A DNA stretch of 64,000 nucleotides from Dehalococcoidia bacterium (GTDB taxonomy: Bacteria > Chloroflexota > Dehalococcoidia > Bin125): assembly GCA_965243125.1 (NCBI GenBank), contig OZ251529.1, positions 2,452,312 through 2,516,311 of the forward strand. Reading direction: 5' to 3'. This document shows positions 6,471 through 53,417 of the stretch, one piece after another. How positions within the stretch are numbered: the first letter of the stretch is position 1; every line of letters starts with the position of its first letter. Below the pieces are notes generated by a model. That model did not search any database. It was not told where the DNA came from and was given only the letters and a program-made list of their open reading frames with translations. The translations under genes and the position numbers were made by a program.

Positions 6471-6840
6471 GCCCTGCCCGCTCCAGCCCGCCGCCGTCAC
6501 GCCCCCACTTCCGTCGTACCCGCGCTTGCCGCGGGTATCTCGACGTGAGCACCACCACCGCATCCCACCACTCTCCTGTGATTCCCGCCCTGGGCGTGCC
6601 CCTCAAACATCGTGCCCACCTCCACCCTGTCGCCGCCCTCCAAATTCCGTCGCCCCAGACTTGATCTGGGGGGCAAACCCAACCCCCTTCGCAGCACCGA
6701 AGCTCCGATCCGTCCCGCCAACGCCGTTCGCAGCACCGCCCGGTGCATTGTGACGCGAACTACCGCCGTATGGATTCCAGCTTTCGCTGGAATGGACGGA
6801 GGGTGGGGCGGAAATGACGGATCAGCGGCACTAAATTAGC
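6470..6840. repeat. Composite hairpin-rich intergenic repeat, copy 2 (family B)
   Basis: Contains 'ccgtcgtacccgcgcttgccgcgggtatctcgacgtgagcacc', 'gattcccgccctggg' and 'ggattccagctttcgctggaatgg' hairpins, all shared with copies 1 and 3. Confidence 0.6.
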
Positions 6841-45890: not shown

Positions 45891-46517
45891 TCAGGACGCA
45901 GGCCACCACACATCGCTGAAGTCCACGACGAGCCCCGGCAGCACATCCTCGCCGGAGAGGGTGTCGGGGCGTTCGAGTTGCTCAGGCTCTTGGCCGGGGC
46001 GGTAGATGTAGGCGATGTCGTCGAACGGATCGATCAGCCAGGCGAGGCGCGCGCCGCTGTCGATCCAGAACTGCATCTTGTCGAGCTGGTCGGGCAGTCT
46101 GTCGGAGATCGAGCGGACTTCGATCACGAAATCGGGGCAGAGGCGCAGCATGCCCTCAAGGTCGCGGCGTCCCTGCGGCAACCGCGTGCCGGACACCCAG
46201 GCGATATCGGGCGCTCTGATGGCGCGGTCGTTGATGCGATAGAACCCGTCCGGCGTCGTCACGATGCCGTCCATGACGACGCGCCACCACTCGTACATCT
46301 GCCCCAGGATGATGAACGAGCGGAAGCTGCTGTAGAAACCCGCGCCGCCCATGATGATCAGCCTTCCGTGTTCGTCGACCTCGAAGCGCCATTCGGGGTT
46401 GAGTTCGCAGAGCTGCTCGAAGGCGTCGTCGGTGAACTCCCACGCCGGCGGCGTGCAGAGACGCAGAGGACCGGCTGCAACGGCTGCGGTTGTGACGGGT
46501 TTGGTTGCGGTGACCAT
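45891..46517 (-). CDS. Uma2-family (DUF820, PD-(D/E)xK-like) endonuclease, paralog 1
   Basis: 208 aa; 'FTDDAFEQLCELNPEWRFEVDEHGRL' and C-terminal 'PDFVIEVRSISD...AWLIDP' pattern of Uma2 proteins. Confidence 0.7.
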   Translation of the reverse strand: MVTATKPVTTAAVAAGPLRLCTPPAWEFTDDAFEQLCELNPEWRFEVDEHGRLIIMGGAGFYSSFRSFIILGQMYEWWRVVMDGIVTTPDGFYRINDRAIRAPDIAWVSGTRLPQGRRDLEGMLRLCPDFVIEVRSISDRLPDQLDKMQFWIDSGARLAWLIDPFDDIAYIYRPGQEPEQLERPDTLSGEDVLPGLVVDFSDVWWPAS

Positions 46518-46549: not shown

Positions 46550-47176
46550 TCAGGACGAGGGCCACCAGACCTTGCTGAGATCGACCACCAGCCCCGGCAG
46601 CACATCTTCGCCGGAGAGGGTGTCGGGGCGTTCCAGCTGCTCAGGCTCCCGGGCGGGGCGGTAGATGTAGGCGATGTCGTCGAACGGATCGATCAGCCAG
46701 GCGAGACGCGCGCCGCTGTCGATCCAGAACTGCATCTTGTCGAGCTGGTCGGGCAGTCTGTCGGAGATCGAGCGCACCTCGATCACGAAGTCGGGGCAGA
46801 GACGCAGCATGCGCTCAAGGTCGTCTCTGTTCTGCGGCAATCGCTCGCTCGAGACCCAAGCGACGTCGGGCGCGCGCAGCACCCTGCCGCGAATGCGGTA
46901 GAAGCCGTCCGCGCCGCTGACGCCGCCGTGGCCGTCGCTCTCCGTCCAATCATCGACCTGCCTGCCGAGTTTCACAGACCGGCGGCTGCTCTCGAAACCC
47001 GGGCTGCCCATGAACACCAGCCTTCCGTGTTCGTCAACCTCGAAGCGCCACTCGGGGTTCAGCTCGCAGAGTTGCTCGAAGGCGTCGTCGGTGAACTCCC
47101 AGGCCGGCGGCGTGCAGAGACGCAGGGGCTCAAGGCCCGCGACGGCGGGCGCGGAAGGCGTTGTTGCGGTCACCAT
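46550..47176 (-). CDS. Uma2-family endonuclease, paralog 2 (tandem duplicate)
   Basis: 208 aa, about 85-90% identical to paralog 1 apart from an 80-aa central segment. Confidence 0.7.
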   Translation of the reverse strand: MVTATTPSAPAVAGLEPLRLCTPPAWEFTDDAFEQLCELNPEWRFEVDEHGRLVFMGSPGFESSRRSVKLGRQVDDWTESDGHGGVSGADGFYRIRGRVLRAPDVAWVSSERLPQNRDDLERMLRLCPDFVIEVRSISDRLPDQLDKMQFWIDSGARLAWLIDPFDDIAYIYRPAREPEQLERPDTLSGEDVLPGLVVDLSKVWWPSS

Positions 47177-47849: not shown

Positions 47850-48347
47850 GTGGGGTTCCTTTCGCGGCGTGCGCGTTCGTTGAGACGGCGTCGGCCGTTG
47901 GGCGCAGGGTAGCACCGCGCCTGAGGCTTCGTCCGCGCTTTGCCGTTCGGCTACTGGTGCTCCTGGTGGCAGGGGCACGAGCACTCGTCGAGCGAGTAGC
48001 GCATGACCTCCATGTAGGTCGACTCGGCGAGATGCTCGGCGAGCGCCTCGGGCAGTTTTTGGCCGCTCGCATCGCCCGCCTTGCGGATCGCGTCGTAGGC
48101 GTAGACGGCCATCGCCGCCGACCGATTGATCACGTCCGCGATGTCGCTGCGGATCACTCCCTCTTCGCCGGCGTGTCGTTCGTCCACCACCATGGCGACC
48201 TCCCGCCGGCCTGCATCACGCGGCGTCGTGCGGCGCGCTGGGCCGCTCTGCGCTCGGCCGGCGGTCCTAGAATACACAGGCCGCCGCTCGCTCAACCGCC
48301 CGCGCGCGACGCACCTGCACGACAGATCCGTAGGAGAGGACACCGCC

Positions 48348-49247
48348 ATGCCGCCAATGGAGTTCGGCGCTCAGATTCCCGCCTGGCACTGGCACTGGGA
48401 TGTCTCGGAGGTGCGCGACTGGGCGCAGGGGGTGGAGGCGATCGGCCTCGATCTGATTTCGATGGCGGACCACGTGACCTACGCCTACGAGCTGCCGGAT
48501 CGGCTCAACGACGGGCCGTATCAGGACGATGTGCATCAGCACGAGGTGCTGATCACGCTGGCCTGGCTGGCGGCGCAGACGAGCCGCGTCGCGCTCCAGA
48601 CCAACGTGCTGGTGCTGCCGCAGCGCGAGCCGGTGCTGGTCGCCAAGCAGGCCGCCGAAATCGACATCCTCTCGGGCGGGCGCTTTCGGCTGGGCATCGG
48701 CGTGGGCTGGCAGGTGCCGGAGTTCGAGTCGCTGGGAGCGTCGTTCCGCCAGCGTCCGTCGCGGATGGAGGAGGCCATCCACGTGCTGCGGGCGTGCTGG
48801 ACGGAGGAGCCGATCAACTTTGAGGGGCGCTACACGACGATGCGCGAGATGAGCATGCTGCCCAAGCCGGTGACGCCGGGCGGGCCGCCGATTCTGTTCG
48901 GCGGCTTCTCCGATCCGGCGCTGGACCGCGCGGCGCGGCTGGGCGACGGCTGGATCGCGCCGGTGCAGTCGGACATCGACCACCTGATCGGCTTCACGGA
49001 GAAGATCCGGGCGGCGCTGGAGCGTCACGGGCGGGAGGCGGAGGAGTTTCCGATCCAGTGGCTGCCGCCGCTAGACACGGACATCGCGGCGACACGGCGC
49101 ACGCTGGTCGCGGCGCGGGAGGCGGGAATCACGCGGCTGGGCATCGGGATGCCCAACTACGACCGCGAGGCCGCCGTGCCGGTGGATGAGTATCTGCGGC
49201 ACATCGAGACGGTCTGGCGGGAGATTTGGCCGGAGCTGCGGGGGTGA
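48348..49247 (+). CDS. Luciferase-like monooxygenase (LLM) class F420-dependent oxidoreductase
   Basis: About 300 aa TIM-barrel LLM pattern ('ISMADHV', 'VLVLPQREPVLVAKQAAEIDILSGGRFRLGIGVGW'). Confidence 0.8.
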   Translation: MPPMEFGAQIPAWHWHWDVSEVRDWAQGVEAIGLDLISMADHVTYAYELPDRLNDGPYQDDVHQHEVLITLAWLAAQTSRVALQTNVLVLPQREPVLVAKQAAEIDILSGGRFRLGIGVGWQVPEFESLGASFRQRPSRMEEAIHVLRACWTEEPINFEGRYTTMREMSMLPKPVTPGGPPILFGGFSDPALDRAARLGDGWIAPVQSDIDHLIGFTEKIRAALERHGREAEEFPIQWLPPLDTDIAATRRTLVAAREAGITRLGIGMPNYDREAAVPVDEYLRHIETVWREIWPELRG

Positions 49248-49255
49248 GGGGCGCG

Positions 49256-49450
49256 ATGACGCGATTGCGCCGCTTTCTGTGGCCTTCAGTGCGGAGCGTC
49301 CTGGAAGACGATCAGCTGTCCGGAGATGAGCGTCGGGAGGCAGCGGAGCGCATCCTTGACCAGCGGCACCGACGAATGATCTGCGCGATATTCGTCGGCG
49401 GCGCAGTGATGATCGTGGCAACTGCGCTGCTTTGGATCTTCCTGCGGTGA
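49256..49450 (+). CDS. Tail-anchored mini-protein (64 aa)
   Basis: MTRLRRFLWPSVRSVLEDDQLSGDERREAAERILDQRHRRMICAIFVGGAVMIVATALLWIFLR. The C-terminal TM resembles the tails of 49497-49600 and 49751-50164. Confidence 0.4.
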   Translation: MTRLRRFLWPSVRSVLEDDQLSGDERREAAERILDQRHRRMICAIFVGGAVMIVATALLWIFLR

Positions 49451-49462
49451 TGCGCGGCGGGC

Positions 49463-49600
49463 CTAGATCGCGTCGGGGCCGGGCCAGATCTGGATGGCGA
49501 TGTCGGCCAGTCGCTCGCAGCGCGAAACGCTGCGGGCGATGATCGTGGTGGCGGGCGTCGCAGTGGCTGCGATCGGGCTGCTGATCGCGTTCCTCTAGCC
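49463..49600. other. Decayed duplicate of the convergent gene junction (GmrSD 3' end-like 60 nt plus a tail-anchor-encoding 3' end), with a possible 34-aa tail-anchored ORF (49497-49600)
   Basis: 49463-49525 is about 88% identical to 50169-50230 (the reverse-strand 3' end of the DUF262/DUF1524 gene). 49540-49600 parallels 50100-50164, and the potential peptide MAMSASRSQRETLRAMIVVAGVAVAAIGLLIAFL matches the tail of the coiled-coil protein. Confidence 0.6.
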
Positions 49601-49750
49601 CGGGCCGCCTGACGCCAGATCGCGCCAGGCTGGGCAGGGGATGTGAGGGCTGATCGTCGCCCGGGAGGCGGGATTACGCGGCTGTGGATCGGGATGCCGA
49701 GCTATGGCTGCGCGACGGCGGCGGCGGTTGATCTGCGCTAGAATGGAGCC

Positions 49751-50164
49751 ATGGCAGCCATACCGTCGCTGGACTGGTACGAAAAGCTGATCGCGGCCGG
49801 CTTCACCGAGAAACAGGCGCTGAATCGCCAGCTGCTCGAAAGCGACCACAAGATCGACAACCTCCAGCGCAATGTGGACCAGCTGCGCACAGATATGGAG
49901 AACGGCTTCACGCAGGTGCAGGAGGCGATGGAGCGCGGCTTCGCTCAGCTGCGGGCCGACATGCAGCGCGACATGGAGCAGCTGCGGCTGGAAATGAAAC
50001 GAGATCTCGAACTGGGCCAGGCGGAGCAGCGGCGGCACACGGAGCAGATCGCCAGTGAGGCCAGGCAGCACTCGGACCGGATCGAGCGGAACACGCTGGT
50101 TGCGATGATTGTGGTGGCGGGAGTGATCATCGCGGCGGTGGGGCTGATCGTCGCGCTGCTGTAG
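49751..50164 (+). CDS. Coiled-coil tail-anchored membrane protein (XhlA/DUF1640-like architecture)
   Basis: 137 aa: a heptad-rich region (NLQRNVDQLRTDMENGFTQVQEAMERGFAQLRADMQRDMEQLRLEMKRD) and a C-terminal TM (LVAMIVVAGVIIAAVGLIVALL). Convergent with the GmrSD-like gene, with 4 nt between the stops. Confidence 0.6.
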   Translation: MAAIPSLDWYEKLIAAGFTEKQALNRQLLESDHKIDNLQRNVDQLRTDMENGFTQVQEAMERGFAQLRADMQRDMEQLRLEMKRDLELGQAEQRRHTEQIASEARQHSDRIERNTLVAMIVVAGVIIAAVGLIVALL

Positions 50165-50168
50165 CGGT

Positions 50169-51995
50169 CTAGACCGCGTCTGGGCCGGGCCAGATCTGGA
50201 TGGCGATCTCAGTCAGCCGCTTGCTGCGGGCAAGAATCGTCGCCTCATCCCACACATCGCCCGCGTGCTTGATGAGGTCGTGATTGATCGGCGTGAGGCT
50301 GTGCTTCTGGATCTCCGGGCGTTTTTCAGACCATGGATCGTCGGAGATGGCCGAATTGAGGGATTGTGTGACCAATGTGAGGTTGCCGATCGTGTGGACC
50401 AGACGATCGCGTGCTGCCTCCGCCGTTTCGCTGGCATGCGCGAGTTCCTCTGCCGGCGCATCCCATTTCTCGCCGCGCCACTTTTGCGGCATCACGTGTT
50501 CAATGCTCAGCGACGAGTAGTCGTAGTTGAGCGGCTCGTTTTTCGCCGTGTGGAAGCTGCCGGCAAGTGCTTCGAGGACCATCGCCAGTTTGCGCCGGGC
50601 CAAGCCGCCGTACAGCGGCCGCTCGAGCAGGGCTTTCTCGAGCACGCTGTCGGACGGCCAGGCCCGACGCTCGACTGTTTGACTTCGCAGGTGGTCGATC
50701 ACGACGGCATCGGCGGCGGCGGGAGCGGCCTCATTCAGGCGCTTCAGGATTTCCTGCATCACGCGGTTCAGTCCCATGCTGGTGCGTCCGCACAGCGCGC
50801 GGCGCACGAGATAGCTCTCCAGCGCTCGGACAGCGCTGACAGTCCTTTCGCGGGATTCTGCGGGCACGTTCGCCATGAGCCAGAGCAGCACCGGCGTCAC
50901 AACGCCGACGTCCAGGATGTCGAAACGGGCGAGTTGGGTTGAGATGTCGGATTCTGCCGACGGGTCCGCGAGTTGGACGTAGAAATCCGAGACGGAATTC
51001 ATGTCGCCCACAACATCGCCGATCTTGCCATCATGCCCCTCGGTGTATTCGCGGAATGTGCGGAACACGTCGCCGGCCAGCACTTCGTCGGCAACCCGCA
51101 TAGTGAGCCAGTAGTTCAAGAACTGCTCGACGCGCTGGCGGCGAATGCGCCCCTGCTGGACCTCGGTGGTCCACCAGTCGTCGAGGTAGCGCACCAGCCA
51201 CTTTTCCGCCACGGCCTCGGCGTCAAGCCCATCGCGCTGTGCGGCGTGGATGATGTAGTTCTTGACGAGATCCGACTGCAAGAGGGGCGTACCGCGTGCG
51301 TTCAGGGTCTCGAAGATGACCTGCGGATCGACATCGGGACCAAGGTCGATCACGACCAACAGCAGGTAGCGCCTCAGGACGGAATACAGAGCTTTGGCAC
51401 GCGCTGGATTCACATCACCATCGTCGCGGAGCCACTCACGGACCTTGTTGCGGAAGAAGTTGTGTGCCTCAACGAGCGGCGAGTCTTCGTGCTCTTTCGT
51501 CGGCAGGTCGTTGTGCATCGCATGCCGAAAAGCCTCGCGGTCGGCACGTGTCGGCCAGACTTTGAAGTGATCTTCGTCAACCTCAACGAAGTCGTCATCG
51601 TTCGCGACGAGGACACGTAGGCGCGCCGACAGTTTGTCACCTGCGATTTCGTACTCCTCCTGTGCTGCATCGAGCAGCAACTGGAGAGTCGTCAATCGCT
51701 GTTGTCCATCGATCACCAGCCGGATATCGATGTCGCCTGTCGGCTGCCGTTCCTGTTGCACGACGACAGCACCCAGGAAGTGGCTGGCGCGACTATCCTC
51801 AGAGACTGCGACATCGTTCGGCGTGTCAGCATGCTGCTCTGCGAGGGCGCTCACGTCATTCCACAGCGGATCCCACTGCTCGTCCTCGTTCCACACGTAG
51901 CGGCGCTGGAACGGCGGAATCACATAGCGAATTGGCCCTTGAAAGAGCTTCGCCGAATTCCGCACATTGACTTCGATCGAGGCGTCCTGTGGCAT
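50169..51995 (-). CDS. GmrSD-family type IV (modification-dependent) restriction endonuclease, DUF262 (ParB-like NTPase) plus DUF1524 (His-Me/HNH-like nuclease)
   Basis: N-terminal 'RYVIPPFQRRYVW' and 'LVIDGQQRLTTL' (DGQQR) are DUF262 signatures. C-terminal 'SIEHVMPQKW...HTIGNLTLVTQSLNSA' is the DUF1524 H...N...N core. Confidence 0.85.
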   Translation of the reverse strand: MPQDASIEVNVRNSAKLFQGPIRYVIPPFQRRYVWNEDEQWDPLWNDVSALAEQHADTPNDVAVSEDSRASHFLGAVVVQQERQPTGDIDIRLVIDGQQRLTTLQLLLDAAQEEYEIAGDKLSARLRVLVANDDDFVEVDEDHFKVWPTRADREAFRHAMHNDLPTKEHEDSPLVEAHNFFRNKVREWLRDDGDVNPARAKALYSVLRRYLLLVVIDLGPDVDPQVIFETLNARGTPLLQSDLVKNYIIHAAQRDGLDAEAVAEKWLVRYLDDWWTTEVQQGRIRRQRVEQFLNYWLTMRVADEVLAGDVFRTFREYTEGHDGKIGDVVGDMNSVSDFYVQLADPSAESDISTQLARFDILDVGVVTPVLLWLMANVPAESRERTVSAVRALESYLVRRALCGRTSMGLNRVMQEILKRLNEAAPAAADAVVIDHLRSQTVERRAWPSDSVLEKALLERPLYGGLARRKLAMVLEALAGSFHTAKNEPLNYDYSSLSIEHVMPQKWRGEKWDAPAEELAHASETAEAARDRLVHTIGNLTLVTQSLNSAISDDPWSEKRPEIQKHSLTPINHDLIKHAGDVWDEATILARSKRLTEIAIQIWPGPDAV

Positions 51996-52001
51996 GGGCT
52001 T

Positions 52002-53417
52002 TTACTCCACTGAGCTCAGGGTGGACGACTTGCGGAGGGCGTTGGCGGCGCGCTCGAAGCTGGGGAAGGTAGGGATGCTTTCCGCCTGTAGGCGCTGGCG
52101 CGCCTCCAGCGCTTCCGGCTCTACGTGGCTGGGGTGGAGCGCGGCCAGGAGCGGCTTTTCGGACTTCGCGGTGAAGCGTTGGATGGAGGCGATCAGGCGA
52201 TCGAACTCCTCCGGCTTGTCGCGCCAGCGGCGGGCCATGAACGTCGCCGACAGCTCCATCGCCACCGCGTCGATGTTTGGGTCGGCGTCGAGGATGTCGA
52301 AGATGGTATCGAGGTGTTCGGGGGCCTGGCCGATGGTGCCGGCGGCGTCGAGCGGGTTTCGGTAGGAACCGCCGATGATGTTGAAGAACTCGGCGAGTTG
52401 CGTGTATGAGTCGTCGGAGAGCGTGGGCACTTTCCAGCCGGCCTTTTCGAAGGCGTCGGTCAGTACGACCGACTGACCGCCGGTCATCGCGATCAGGCCG
52501 AGCCGATTGCCGCTGGGGCGGCGGGTGAGCAGCGTCGCCTTGACAACGTCGATCATCTCGTCGAGGTTATGCACGGCAACGGCGCCGACCTGGCGGATCA
52601 CGGCTTCCCAGACGGCCTGGTCGCTGGCGAGCGAGGCAGTGTGCGAACGGATGGCGCGTCCGCCGCCCTCGGTCTGGCCGCCCTTCCAGATGATGACGGG
52701 CTTGCGGGCGGCGGCGGCCTTGAGCGATTCGAAGAGGCGGCGTCCGTCGCGCGCGCCCTCGATGTACATCCCGATCACGCGGGTGCGGTCGTCGTCGGCG
52801 AGGTAATCGAGGTAGTCGGCGGCTTCGAGGATGATGCCGTTGCCGAACGAGACGAGCGATGAGCAGTACAGCCCGTTGGCCGCGCCGGTCAGGGAGAAGT
52901 TCATCCCGTGCGTGCCGCTCTGGGAGATGAAGCCGATCTCGCCTTCGACGTCGTGGGGCTGGTCGCGGTTGAAGCGGACGCCGAGGCGGGGGATGTGGAC
53001 GCCCATGCAGTTGGGGCCGATCAGGGCGAGGCCGGAGGGGGCGGCGATTTCGTGGATTTTGTCCTGGAGCTCGACGCCGATCTCTTCGCCGGTCTCGGCA
53101 AAGCCGCTGGTGAAGAGGGTGACGCCGCCGACCTCGGCGTCGACGCAGCCCTGCACGATGAACGGCGCGACCTGGCGGGGCACGGCGCAGACGGCGAAGT
53201 CGACGCGCTCGGGGATGTCGGCGAGGCTCTGGTAGTTTTCGACGCCGAGCTCCTCGATACCGGGGATCTCGTTGGGATCGACCTGTACCGAATAGAGCTT
53301 GCCGGTGAAGGTTTGCAGCGAGCGGAGCCAGGTGTAGCCGCTGGCTTTTTTGTCGCCGATCACGGCGACGACTTCGGGGTTGAGGGTGCGGTGCAGGCGT
53401 TCGCGGGTGACGGGCAT
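52002..53417 (-). CDS. Acetyl-CoA synthetase (ADP-forming), alpha subunit (CoA-binding plus succinyl-CoA-synthetase-like ligase domains)
   Basis: 471 aa; 'VAVIGDKKASGYTWL' CoA-binding opening, 'FISQSGTHG', phosphohistidine-loop region 'GGRAIRSHTASLASD'. Confidence 0.8.
   Translation of the reverse strand: MPVTRERLHRTLNPEVVAVIGDKKASGYTWLRSLQTFTGKLYSVQVDPNEIPGIEELGVENYQSLADIPERVDFAVCAVPRQVAPFIVQGCVDAEVGGVTLFTSGFAETGEEIGVELQDKIHEIAAPSGLALIGPNCMGVHIPRLGVRFNRDQPHDVEGEIGFISQSGTHGMNFSLTGAANGLYCSSLVSFGNGIILEAADYLDYLADDDRTRVIGMYIEGARDGRRLFESLKAAAARKPVIIWKGGQTEGGGRAIRSHTASLASDQAVWEAVIRQVGAVAVHNLDEMIDVVKATLLTRRPSGNRLGLIAMTGGQSVVLTDAFEKAGWKVPTLSDDSYTQLAEFFNIIGGSYRNPLDAAGTIGQAPEHLDTIFDILDADPNIDAVAMELSATFMARRWRDKPEEFDRLIASIQRFTAKSEKPLLAALHPSHVEPEALEARQRLQAESIPTFPSFERAANALRKSSTLSSVE

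What the first reader, a model, noticed from the sequence alone, without database searches (positions are those of the whole stretch)
49256..51995. GmrSD-type (DUF262-DUF1524) type IV restriction enzyme convergent with a family of coiled-coil/tail-anchored proteins, plus a decayed duplicate of the junction
The 608-aa ORF has clear DUF262 (FQRRYVW, DGQQR) and DUF1524 (IEHVMPQ...N...N) signatures. This is the architecture of the GmrSD/BrxU family, which cleaves modified DNA. Its stop is 4 nt from the stop of a convergent 137-aa coiled-coil protein ending in a TM tail (XhlA/DUF1640-like architecture). Upstream lie two more mini-ORFs with similar tail anchors (49256-49450; a 34-aa ORF at 49497-49600). 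49463-49600 is a degenerate copy of both gene 3' ends joined together, which shows the nuclease/tail-anchored junction has been duplicated and has decayed. Stand-alone GmrSD is a known family. A conserved tail-anchored coiled-coil partner family would be new, for example a membrane-associated abortive-infection or anti-restriction/immunity component.
Basis: partly seen in the sequence, partly recalled or inferred. Interest (0 to 1): 0.7.

Follow-up and report, generated by a model that had tools for sequence, protein, structure and literature searches.

The report
Swappable GmrSD restriction gene with recombination scars
An intact GmrSD-type restriction nuclease sits in a chromosomal slot where related Dehalococcoidia genomes carry very different versions of the gene, and the small "partner" genes beside it are a rearranged DUF1640-type membrane-protein array with recombination scars, not a demonstrated new partner family.

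Summary
The sequence observations are real. 50169-51995(-) is an intact 608-aa DUF262-DUF1524 (GmrSD-family) nuclease. Its stop lies 4 nt from the stop of a convergent 137-aa coiled-coil, tail-anchored ORF. 49460-49599 does copy both 3' ends.

- ORF137 is a chimera. A 233-nt deletion fused a conserved 60-aa gene (orf60) to a divergent DUF1640/CCDC90-like gene. Both genes are intact in relatives.
- In related Dehalococcoidia genomes, 1-3 orf60+DUF1640 cassettes form a variable tandem array between the same LLM-oxidoreductase gene and GmrSD.
- The "decayed duplicate" is a recombination scar. About 59 nt of a GmrSD 3' end are joined, through the 7-nt microhomology CGCTCGC, to the tail of a lost array member. 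The order is the reverse of the real junction. An independent scar of the same type exists in another strain.
- GmrSD itself is swapped. Flanks are 93-98% identical at nucleotide level, but GmrSD alleles are only 40-85% identical to the window's.
- Cassette type does not track GmrSD type.
- None of 81 GmrSD loci outside this synteny block has a related or analogous neighbour.

Verdict: a known enzyme in a defence-gene replacement hot spot. The partner hypothesis is unsupported but not excluded.

The parts
50169..51995 (-). Intact single-chain GmrSD-family (DUF262 + DUF1524) nuclease, 608 aa, allele group A
   Evidence: Pfam PF03235 E 5e-36 and PF07510 E 4e-24. PADLOC Orf5 2e-99, HEC-06, mREase_IV. 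DGQQR and E-H-N-N residues sit in invariant columns of 18 homologues. AlphaFold model pLDDT 83.8; Foldseek hits DndI 9jfl E 4e-15, SspE, BrxU 7p9m E 2.7e-4.
50206..52023 (.). Segment replaced between near-identical genomes: the GmrSD ORF minus its last ~37 nt, plus the intergenic region and the last ~7 codons of the CoA-binding gene
   Evidence: blastn of the window against L004 and L006 gives 93-98% identity up to 50205 and again from 52024. In between there is only a 67-nt island at the DGQQR motif. GmrSD is 43-44% aa identical while LLM, Trx9 and CoA are 98-100%.
49751..50164 (+). ORF137: in-frame chimera of orf60 (codons 1-24) and a type-a DUF1640-like tail-anchored coiled-coil gene (stalk + TM tail). 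It lacks the DUF1640 head and beta-layer motif.
   Evidence: 100% identical to L006 orf60 over residues 1-24, and 89% identical to L006 CC155 residues 36-155. A 233-nt deletion relative to L006 6569-6801, with GCTG microhomology. The same fusion occurs in L005 (P0002, 90% identity; dN/dS 0.32).
49751..49822 (+). orf60-derived 5' part of ORF137
   Evidence: The orf60 family is under strong purifying selection (dN/dS 0.05-0.08).
49649..49732 (+). L': decayed non-coding copy of the 3' coding end of the LLM gene (49103-49187)
   Evidence: the repeat finder D3/D11, 75-84% identity. blastn E 3e-9. tblastn of LLM residues 327-350 gives 79% against the equivalent segment in L005.
49599..49648 (.). Spacer of unassigned origin between the tail remnant and L'
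   Evidence: Not significantly similar to any GmrSD 3' end (shuffle p 0.05-0.4).
49512..49598 (+). T': last ~29 codons plus stop of a lost type-b DUF1640-like gene (array copy 1)
   Evidence: Collinear with L005 from position 660 onward, at 90% over 828 nt. 85% aa identical to L005 CC162 residues 130-162. L005 carries the intact gene.
49460..49518 (-). N': copy of the last ~19 codons (with stop complement at 49463-49465) of a GmrSD gene. It is joined to T' at the microhomology CGCTCGC (49512-49518).
   Evidence: 58/60 identical to the GmrSD 3' ends of L005 and L007, 57/62 to L004's, and 86% to the window's own. The junction is shown base by base.
49494..49598 (+). 34-aa ORF: chimeric scar ORF (antisense of N' read into T'), probably not a gene
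   Evidence: L090 has an analogous but independent 40-aa scar ORF.
49256..49450 (+). ORF64: orphan small protein with a C-terminal TM segment, placed 12 nt from the N' stop complement
   Evidence: One homologue cluster (P0016) among 5.8 billion proteins, carried in L006; L009 has a copy with no amino-acid difference from the window. No relation to the CC or orf60 profiles. GC3 is 0.71, against 0.90-0.95 in core flanks and 0.76 in GmrSD.
48348..49247 (+). Left conserved flank: F420-dependent LLM-class oxidoreductase
   Evidence: PF00296 and TIGR03619. 98-100% aa identical in L004, L006 and L007.
52002..53417 (-). Right conserved flank: CoA-binding / succinyl-CoA-ligase-like gene. Its stop is 6 nt from the GmrSD start.
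   Evidence: Pfam. 98-99% aa identical in L004, L006 and L007. The last 5-6 codons differ with GmrSD allele type.

Best explanation
The 608-aa gene is a functional, stand-alone GmrSD-family nuclease. It has an N-terminal ParB-like DUF262 NTPase domain with DGQQR and a C-terminal DUF1524 His-Me/HNH nuclease domain with E-H-N-N. It most likely acts as a type IV, modification-dependent restriction enzyme against foreign DNA.

It occupies a fixed slot between an LLM oxidoreductase gene and a CoA-ligase-like gene in a Dehalococcoidia lineage. That slot is a replacement hot spot. Recombination in the conserved flanks, with breakpoints in the last ~12 codons of GmrSD and the last few codons of the CoA gene, swaps in very divergent GmrSD alleles.

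Between the LLM gene and GmrSD lies a separate, recombination-prone array of 1-3 bicistronic cassettes. Each cassette is a 60-aa protein plus a divergent DUF1640/CCDC90-like tail-anchored coiled-coil protein. The window holds a decayed array with these parts:
- an orphan ORF64;
- a scar in which ~59 nt of a former GmrSD 3' end are joined by 7-nt microhomology to the tail of a lost cassette;
- a decayed fragment of the LLM 3' end;
- a surviving cassette whose two genes were fused by a 233-nt microhomology deletion into ORF137.

Shown here: domain and fold membership, the synteny, the allele replacement, and the array and scar anatomy. Inferred: the type IV activity, the recombination route (illegitimate joins anchored by flank homology, or unequal crossing-over), and that the cassettes act independently of GmrSD.
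For: GmrSD identity.

Synteny and array variation:
- One cassette: L001, L003, L004 and L007.
- Two cassettes: L005, L092 and L093.
- Three cassettes plus a scar: L090.
- The window's scar haplotype with an intact second cassette: L006 and L009.

Fusion and scar junctions at base level. An independent N'-to-CC scar in L090 has the microhomology GCTGCGGGCG.

Allele replacement:
- Flanks are 93-98% identical at nucleotide level with no similarity across the GmrSD body.
- The identity matrix shows four groups. Group A (85% identical to the window) comprises the window and L007; group B (42-44%) comprises L001, L004 and L006; group C (51-56%) comprises L003, L009 and L092; group D (40%) is L090.
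- A non-syntenic gene (L008) is closer to group A (63-66%) than groups B, C or D are.
- Each allele type carries its own upstream intergenic region.
- GmrSD has lower GC3 than the core genes.

No linkage of cassette type to GmrSD type: the type-a cassette is found with GmrSD groups A, B, C and D.

No co-occurrence elsewhere.

DUF1640 relationship.
Against: - All 12 loci carrying the cassettes (11 relatives plus the window) also carry GmrSD next to them. Both are unusually divergent compared with the flanks. A population-level functional link therefore cannot be excluded.
- No expression or activity data exist. Substrate specificity is unknown.
- The closest solved fold is the phosphorothioate-sensing DndI, not a classic type IV enzyme. 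No dnd or ssp genes lie within about 6 genes on either side, but the rest of the genome was not examined.
- The origin of ORF64 and of the 49599-49648 spacer is unexplained.
- The order of events needs inter-strain recombination or recurrence: L005 has an intact copy 1 with a fused copy 2, while L006 has a scarred copy 1 with an intact copy 2.
Confidence: 0.72

Rival explanations
1. The orf60 + DUF1640-like cassette is a genuine accessory module of GmrSD in this lineage. It could be a membrane-anchored regulator, sensor or localisation factor that works with any resident GmrSD allele. The convergent 4-nt spacing would then provide transcriptional or antisense coupling.
For: - Adjacency is kept in 12 of 12 syntenic loci (11 relatives plus the window) despite heavy rearrangement on both sides.
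- Both modules are far more divergent than the flanks.
- The genes are real and constrained: orf60 dN/dS 0.05-0.08, ORF137 0.32.
- ORF64, an unrelated tail-anchored ORF, also abuts a GmrSD 3' end fragment.
Against: - The adjacency is vertical synteny within one lineage.
- 0 of 81 non-syntenic GmrSD loci have a CC or orf60 relative, including the closest outside homologue at 63% identity.
- Only 3 of the 58 evaluable loci outside the synteny block (2 distinct) have any convergent hydrophobic-tail ORF, and none is related.
- Cassette type and GmrSD type are unlinked.
- The window's copy has lost the head and beta-layer of the family.
- Bona fide DUF1640 proteins are widespread without a known nuclease link.
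Confidence: 0.12
2. The cassette array is its own conflict-related or otherwise diversifying system, for example a membrane-associated exclusion or abortive-infection module. It would be independent of GmrSD and simply share a variable island with it and with the Uma2 array.
For: - Tandem arrays of 1-3 divergent cassettes (37-65% aa identity between types) with variable 11-residue repeat number.
- Neighbouring Uma2 genes also vary from 1 to 3 copies.
- There are weak PADLOC coiled-coil hits to LeoC and ZorA.
Against: - The PADLOC hits are weak (E 6e-5 to 1e-2) and of the kind coiled coils give.
- Tail-anchor topology puts the variable stalk in the cytoplasm, not on the surface (inference).
- No relatives on viral contigs.
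- No functional data for any bacterial DUF1640.
Confidence: 0.12
3. ORF137, ORF64 and the 34-aa ORF are all non-functional debris, and only GmrSD matters at this locus in this genome.
For: - ORF137 is a deletion chimera lacking defining parts of its family.
- The 34-aa ORF is a junction artefact.
- ORF64 is an orphan.
Against: - ORF137 is intact in two strains, with dN/dS 0.32 and dS 0.16.
- ORF64 shows a coding-type GC1/2/3 pattern and a Shine-Dalgarno-like GAGGGG upstream (sequence).
Confidence: 0.3

Closest known systems
GmrSD / BrxU type IV restriction enzymes (DUF262-DUF1524; Eco94GmrSD, BrxU 7p9m)
   Same: Same two-domain architecture, DGQQR and E-H-N-N motifs, single-chain form and stand-alone gene. 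Foldseek match to BrxU at E 2.7e-4.
   Different: Sequence relation to the characterised enzymes is remote: no BrxU or Eco94GmrSD hit by phmmer against PDB at E<=1e-3. Substrate is unknown. The host is an uncultured Dehalococcoidia.
Phosphorothioate-sensing DUF262-DUF1524 effectors DndI (9jfl) and SspE (6jiv, 7drs)
   Same: These are the best structural matches: E 4e-15, TM 0.53-0.55 for DndI, and E 1e-12 to 8e-10 for SspE. PADLOC SspE models also hit.
   Different: Those enzymes are encoded with dndBCDE or sspABCD modification genes (PMC11662687, PMC9646914). No such genes lie within about 6 genes on either side here. Identity is only 14-17%.
Chromosomal 'immigration control regions' / defence hot spots (E. 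coli ICR; Listeria lmo0301-lmo0305 ICR)
   Same: Conserved core flanks hold strain-variable restriction genes that are exchanged by recombination (PMC10059834 and PMC4437046). Here flanks are 93-98% identical while the GmrSD alleles are only 40-85% identical to the window's.
   Different: The slot always holds the same family (GmrSD), as gene-for-gene replacements with breakpoints inside the ORF ends. It does not hold different system types. No integrase, tRNA or transposase is nearby.
DUF1640 / CCDC90-like (PF07798; MCUR1/CCDC90B family) tail-anchored coiled-coil membrane proteins
   Same: Intact relatives have a small N-terminal head, an L-[AV]-T-K-x-D beta-layer motif, a coiled-coil stalk and a C-terminal TM. 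8 of 13 hit PF07798 at E<0.01. A family profile retrieves bona fide PF07798 proteins.
   Different: Scores are below Pfam's gathering cut-off (best 29.3 against 33.5 bits). The genes are paired with a 60-aa upstream gene and arranged in tandem arrays. The window's copy is a chimera missing the head and beta-layer.

Membership tests
GmrSD family (DUF262-DUF1524 type IV restriction enzymes) | N-terminal GmrS/DUF262 domain (PF03235) above the curated cut-off | tested here: met
   125.2 bits against a cut-off of 33.2, residues 16-248
GmrSD family (DUF262-DUF1524 type IV restriction enzymes) | C-terminal GmrD/DUF1524 domain (PF07510) above the curated cut-off | tested here: met
   85.6 bits against a cut-off of 23, residues 446-596
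GmrSD family (DUF262-DUF1524 type IV restriction enzymes) | (I/V)(I/V)DGQQRLTT motif in GmrS and the E/D-H-N-N motif in GmrD (defined in PMC4619093) | tested here: met
   LVIDGQQRLTTLQLL at 92-106. E499, H500, N538 and N547 are invariant in 18 homologues.
GmrSD family (DUF262-DUF1524 type IV restriction enzymes) | Fold shared with solved family members | tested here: met
   Model pLDDT 83.8. Foldseek: DndI E 4e-15, SspE about 1e-12, BrxU 2.7e-4. No other fold at E<0.5.
GmrSD family (DUF262-DUF1524 type IV restriction enzymes) | NTP-stimulated cleavage of modified (hmC, glc-hmC or other) DNA | not testable with these tools
   Needs purified protein or phage challenge.
PT-sensing Dnd/Ssp effectors (DndI, SspE) | Encoded next to dndBCDE or sspABCD modification genes | tested here: not met
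   Neighbours are PHP, GT4, CDP-OH_P_transf, Uma2, Trx9, LLM, CoA-binding, ATP-grasp, HTH_17 and fn3. The rest of the genome was not examined.
DUF1640 / CCDC90-like (PF07798) | Pfam model at or above the gathering score (33.5 bits) | tested here: not met
   ORF137 scores 13.9 bits, E 0.051. The best intact relative scores 29.3 bits, and 8 of 13 hit at E<0.01. By transitivity, 8 of 10 distant profile hits are PF07798 and 6 of them are above the cut-off.
DUF1640 / CCDC90-like (PF07798) | Beta-layer motif [aliphatic]-A-T-K-[polar]-[DE] at the start of the stalk (PMC4786415) | tested here: not met
   Present in intact type-b and type-c relatives (LATKED, LVTKAD) and degenerate in type a (LVKQEE). 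It is deleted from the window's ORF137.
DUF1640 / CCDC90-like (PF07798) | C-terminal transmembrane anchor after a coiled-coil stalk | tested here: met
   LVAMIVVAGVIIAAVGLIVALL at the C-terminus. Maximum Kyte-Doolittle 18-residue mean is 3.16 for the identical C-terminal segment in L005 and L009.
XhlA (PF10779) | Match to the Pfam model | tested here: not met
   No hit at E<=0.1 for ORF137, ORF64 or the 34-aa ORF.
Dedicated two-gene system 'GmrSD + tail-anchored partner' | Co-occurrence in lineages or contexts other than one synteny block | tested here: not met
   L008 (63% identity) and 80 metagenome loci (34-46% identity) give no CC or orf60 hit with hmmsearch --max at E<=1. Only 3 of the 58 evaluable loci have any convergent hydrophobic-tail ORF, none related.
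Dedicated two-gene system 'GmrSD + tail-anchored partner' | Partner alleles co-inherited with nuclease alleles | tested here: not met
   The type-a cassette is found with GmrSD groups A, B, C and D. Type b is found with groups A, B, C and D. Breakpoints fall at the convergent junction.
Chromosomal defence-gene hot spot (immigration control region type) | Highly conserved flanks with strain-variable restriction gene content | tested here: met
   LLM, Trx9 and CoA are 98-100% aa identical, while GmrSD is 40-85% identical to the window's, among 9 distinct loci.

The most novel reading that the evidence does not exclude
The orf60 + DUF1640-like cassette array is a hypervariable, membrane-anchored companion of the GmrSD slot. 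It might be a sensor, a tether or a decoy against phage-encoded GmrSD inhibitors. It would be kept next to the nuclease by selection, although alleles reassort freely. This would be the first function assigned to a bacterial DUF1640 protein and a new accessory layer for type IV restriction.
Probability: 0.1. Interest if true: 0.6.

Novelty: new member of a known kind. Interest (0 to 1): 0.33.

Why it matters
The finding does not reveal a new defence partner. It does give a clean, base-resolved example of how a defence gene is exchanged in an uncultured Chloroflexota lineage. The replacement is gene-for-gene, by alleles as low as 36-44% identical, between flanks that are 93-98% identical, with no mobile-element genes involved. 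Microhomology scars record past events. It also flags an unexplained tandem array of divergent DUF1640-type membrane proteins, a family with no known bacterial function, as a candidate for population-genomic or experimental follow-up.

Tried and rejected
- Exact look-ups of the window's own GmrSD and ORF137 found no contig record. P0021 was also not on record.
It could not serve as a broad co-occurrence test.
- I first read 49601-49648 as a second decayed GmrSD 3' fragment. Shuffle tests gave p 0.05-0.4, so I dropped the idea.
- ORF64 as a diverged CC family member: profile E 0.89, and hhalign 23% over the TM segment only. Rejected as unsupported.
- XhlA: no Pfam hit.
- Viral contigs: no CC relative.
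- Rfam and tRNA scans of the locus: nothing.
- The promoter and terminator scan gave nothing above shuffle expectation.
- NCBIfam has no model for GmrSD, CC, orf60 or ORF64, only coiled-coil noise.
- PADLOC hits of the CC proteins to LeoC, ZorA and LmuB are weak and are treated as coiled-coil noise.
- A simple 'tandem duplication of one unit' model was rejected. The two cassette copies in L005 and L092 are only 47-51% identical (CC) and about 70% identical (orf60), so they are different alleles placed side by side, not recent duplicates.


Full report
**1. Observation**

- The 608-aa ORF at 50169-51995(-) matches PF03235 (GmrSD_N, 125 bits) and PF07510 (GmrSD_C, 85.6 bits), both far above their curated cut-offs.
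- It carries the family's defining motifs as set out in PMC4619093. LVIDGQQRLTT lies at 92-102. E499, H500, N538 and N547 fall in invariant columns of an 18-member alignment.
- An AlphaFold model (pLDDT 83.8) matches only DUF262-DUF1524 nucleases in the PDB: DndI 9jfl at E 4e-15, SspE at about 1e-12, and BrxU 7p9m at 2.7e-4.
- PADLOC's best models are Orf5 (2e-99), HEC-06 and mREase_IV.
- The convergent 137-aa ORF (49751-50164) stops 4 nt from the GmrSD stop.
- Three repeats are significant:
  - 49460-49527 matches 50166-50233 at 84% (GmrSD 3' end).
  - 49519-49599 matches 50085-50165 at 72% (TM tail).
- 49649-49732 matches 49103-49187. It is a decayed copy of the 3' end of the upstream LLM oxidoreductase gene.

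**2. What the small ORFs are**

- ORF137's homologues (13 among 5.8 billion proteins) start MSLDTLKT..CEFTxEQA. They carry an L-[AV]-T-K-x-D motif, a coiled-coil stalk with a variable number of repeats, and an invariant C-terminal TM.
- That motif is the beta-layer signature described for DUF1640 (PMC4786415).
- 8 of 13 homologues hit PF07798 (CCDC90-like/DUF1640) at E<0.01, but all fall below the gathering score (best 29.3 against 33.5 bits).
- A family profile searched against 1.84 billion representatives finds about 7 close relatives and then roughly 300 distant ones. Of 10 sampled distant hits, 8 are PF07798 and 6 of these pass the cut-off.
- The family is therefore a divergent DUF1640 subfamily. 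It is not XhlA (no hit) and not a new fold class.
- In every relative the DUF1640-like gene is preceded by a 58-60-aa gene, orf60. The two overlap by 4 nt (1 nt in the type-c cassette of L090). orf60 is under strong purifying selection, with dN/dS 0.05-0.08.
- The window's ORF137 is a chimera. Residues 1-24 are 100% identical to orf60 of L006. Residues from about 18 onward match L006 CC155 residues 36-155 at 89%.
- A 233-nt deletion (L006 6569-6801) with GCTG microhomology made the in-frame fusion. It removed the DUF1640 head and the beta-layer.
- The same chimera exists in L005 (90% identity; dN/dS 0.32).

**3. The 'decayed duplicate'**

- Base-by-base comparison shows that 49460-49518 copies the last ~19 codons of a GmrSD gene. 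It is 58/60 identical to the 3' ends in L005 and L007, closer than to the window's own.
- That copy is joined at the 7-nt microhomology CGCTCGC (49512-49518) to the last ~29 codons of a type-b DUF1640-like gene.
- The type-b gene is intact in L005, as orf59 + CC162 followed by the same L' fragment and the fused ORF137.
- The 34-aa ORF (49494-49598) is therefore a chimeric scar ORF.
- The two pieces lie in the order nuclease end, then tail. The real junction has the opposite order, so the junction itself was not duplicated.
- L006 and L009 share the scar haplotype at 96-97% nucleotide identity but have an intact orf60+CC155 after it.
- L090 carries an independent scar of the same kind. There, 63 nt of a GmrSD 3' end are fused to a CC repeat at the microhomology GCTGCGGGCG, giving a 40-aa scar ORF.
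- ORF64 (49256-49450) lies 12 nt from the N' stop complement. Its only homologues are in L006 and L009 and it shows no relation to the CC or orf60 profiles. Its GC3 (0.71) resembles GmrSD (0.76) rather than the core genes (0.90-0.95).
- I infer that ORF64 + N' arrived together from a haplotype in which ORF64 faced a GmrSD gene. Such a haplotype was not found.

**4. The locus in relatives**

L007 identifies the lineage as a Dehalococcoidia bacterium (OZ251457.1). I examined 11 syntenic loci. All keep the order Uma2(1-3 copies)-Trx9-80aa-LLM -> [array] -> <- GmrSD <- CoA-binding <- ATP-grasp.

| Array state | Loci |
|---|---|
| One cassette | L001/L002, L003, L004, L007 |
| Two cassettes | L005, L092/L093 |
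| Three cassettes plus a scar | L090 |
| Scar plus one cassette | L006, L009, window |

Cassette types a, b and c are 37-65% identical in the CC protein.

**5. GmrSD allele replacement**

- Between the window and L004, L006 or L007, the LLM, Trx9 and CoA proteins are 98-100% identical. GmrSD is only 44%, 43% and 85% identical respectively.
- Nucleotide similarity to L004 and L006 runs at 93-98% up to 50205, which is 37 nt into the GmrSD 3' end. It resumes at 52024, inside the last codons of the CoA gene. In between there is only a 67-nt island at the DGQQR motif.
- The pairwise matrix gives four groups:

| Group | Members | Identity |
|---|---|---|
| A | window, L007 | 85% to each other |
| B | L001, L004, L006 | 95-98% to each other, although L001's flanks are only about 88% identical to the window; 42-44% to the window |
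| C | L003, L009, L092 | 59-65% to each other; 51-56% to the window |
| D | L090 | 36-40% to all others |

- The only partial gene, in L005, is 83% identical to the window's over residues 345-608 and so also belongs with group A.
- A gene in an unrelated context (L008) is 63-66% identical to group A, closer than B, C or D are. The alleles in this slot are therefore not a single clade.
- Each type brings its own upstream intergenic region (5-6, 27-28, 139 or 487 nt) and its own last CoA codons.
- No tRNA, integrase or Rfam element is nearby.
- This is the behaviour of a chromosomal restriction-gene hot spot, the 'immigration control region' (PMC10059834, PMC4437046). Here it is restricted to gene-for-gene swaps within one family.

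**6. Partner hypothesis**

- Cassette type and GmrSD group assort independently. Type a occurs with groups A, B, C and D. Type b occurs with groups A, B, C and D.
- Outside the synteny block, L008 (63% identity) and 80 metagenome loci with GmrSD homologues at 34-46% identity contain no CC or orf60 relative (hmmsearch --max, E<=1).
- Only 3 of the 58 evaluable loci outside the synteny block (2 distinct) have any convergent ORF with a hydrophobic tail near the GmrSD stop, and none is related.
- What remains in favour is invariant adjacency within the lineage, and the fact that both modules are much more divergent than their flanks.

**7. Mechanism, with status of each step**

- Shown: family and fold membership of GmrSD, intact catalytic motifs, synteny, allele replacement, array variation, and microhomology junctions.
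- Inferred: the enzyme acts as a stand-alone, NTP-dependent, modification-dependent nuclease. No dnd or ssp genes lie within about 6 genes on either side, but the best structural match is the PT-sensing DndI, so the trigger is open.
- Inferred: the allelic diversity reflects selection for different specificities or for escape from phage inhibitors.
- Inferred: the scars arose by unequal or illegitimate recombination anchored by flank homology.
- Inferred: the DUF1640-like proteins are cytoplasm-facing, tail-anchored coiled coils whose function is unknown and probably independent of GmrSD.

**8. Verdict**

This is a known enzyme family in a known kind of variable locus. The partner idea is not supported. 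The scar anatomy and the DUF1640 cassette array are modestly interesting side results.

Noticed in passing
window 45891-46517 and 46550-47176 (-): Two tandem Uma2 (PF05685, putative restriction endonuclease) genes, 77% aa identical. Copy number varies from 1 to 3 among relatives: L001 and L006 have 1, L004 and L092 have 2, and L090 has 3. This is a second variable array about 2 kb from the GmrSD slot.
   Followed up: partly
L001 5527-7329 vs L004 6422-8224 and L006 7148-8950: GmrSD group B is 95-98% identical between genomes whose flanking LLM gene is only about 88% identical. This suggests recent transfer of the allele across species-level lineages.
   Followed up: partly
L090 6636-6795: An independent scar: 63 nt of a GmrSD 3' end fused at the microhomology GCTGCGGGCG to a coiled-coil repeat plus TM tail, giving a 40-aa ORF. 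It shows that GmrSD-end to CC-gene joins recur in this lineage.
   Followed up: yes
window 51996-52001; L004 8225-8363; L090 9423-9909: The GmrSD start is 6 nt from the stop of the upstream CoA-binding gene in allele group A, so co-transcription is likely. Other allele groups bring 27-, 139- or 487-nt upstream regions of their own.
   Followed up: partly
window 49751-49822; L006 6497-6679 vs 6676-6750: The first 25 residues of orf60 weakly resemble the first 25 residues of the DUF1640-like head (xxLxxLxxxxxLxxxxFTxEQA; hhalign probability 58%, E 1e-4). The two genes of the cassette may be ancient partial duplicates.
   Followed up: partly
window 49738-49750; L005 68-80; L092 6519-6531: A conserved GCTAGAATGG element (TAGAAT, -10-like) lies 7-9 nt upstream of every orf60 start codon. 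It is possibly a promoter for a leaderless or short-leader transcript. The consensus promoter scan did not call it.
   Followed up: no
window 47951-48193 (-) region; L004 4506-4748: A conserved 80-aa ORF without any Pfam hit lies between the Thioredoxin_9 and LLM genes in all relatives.
   Followed up: no
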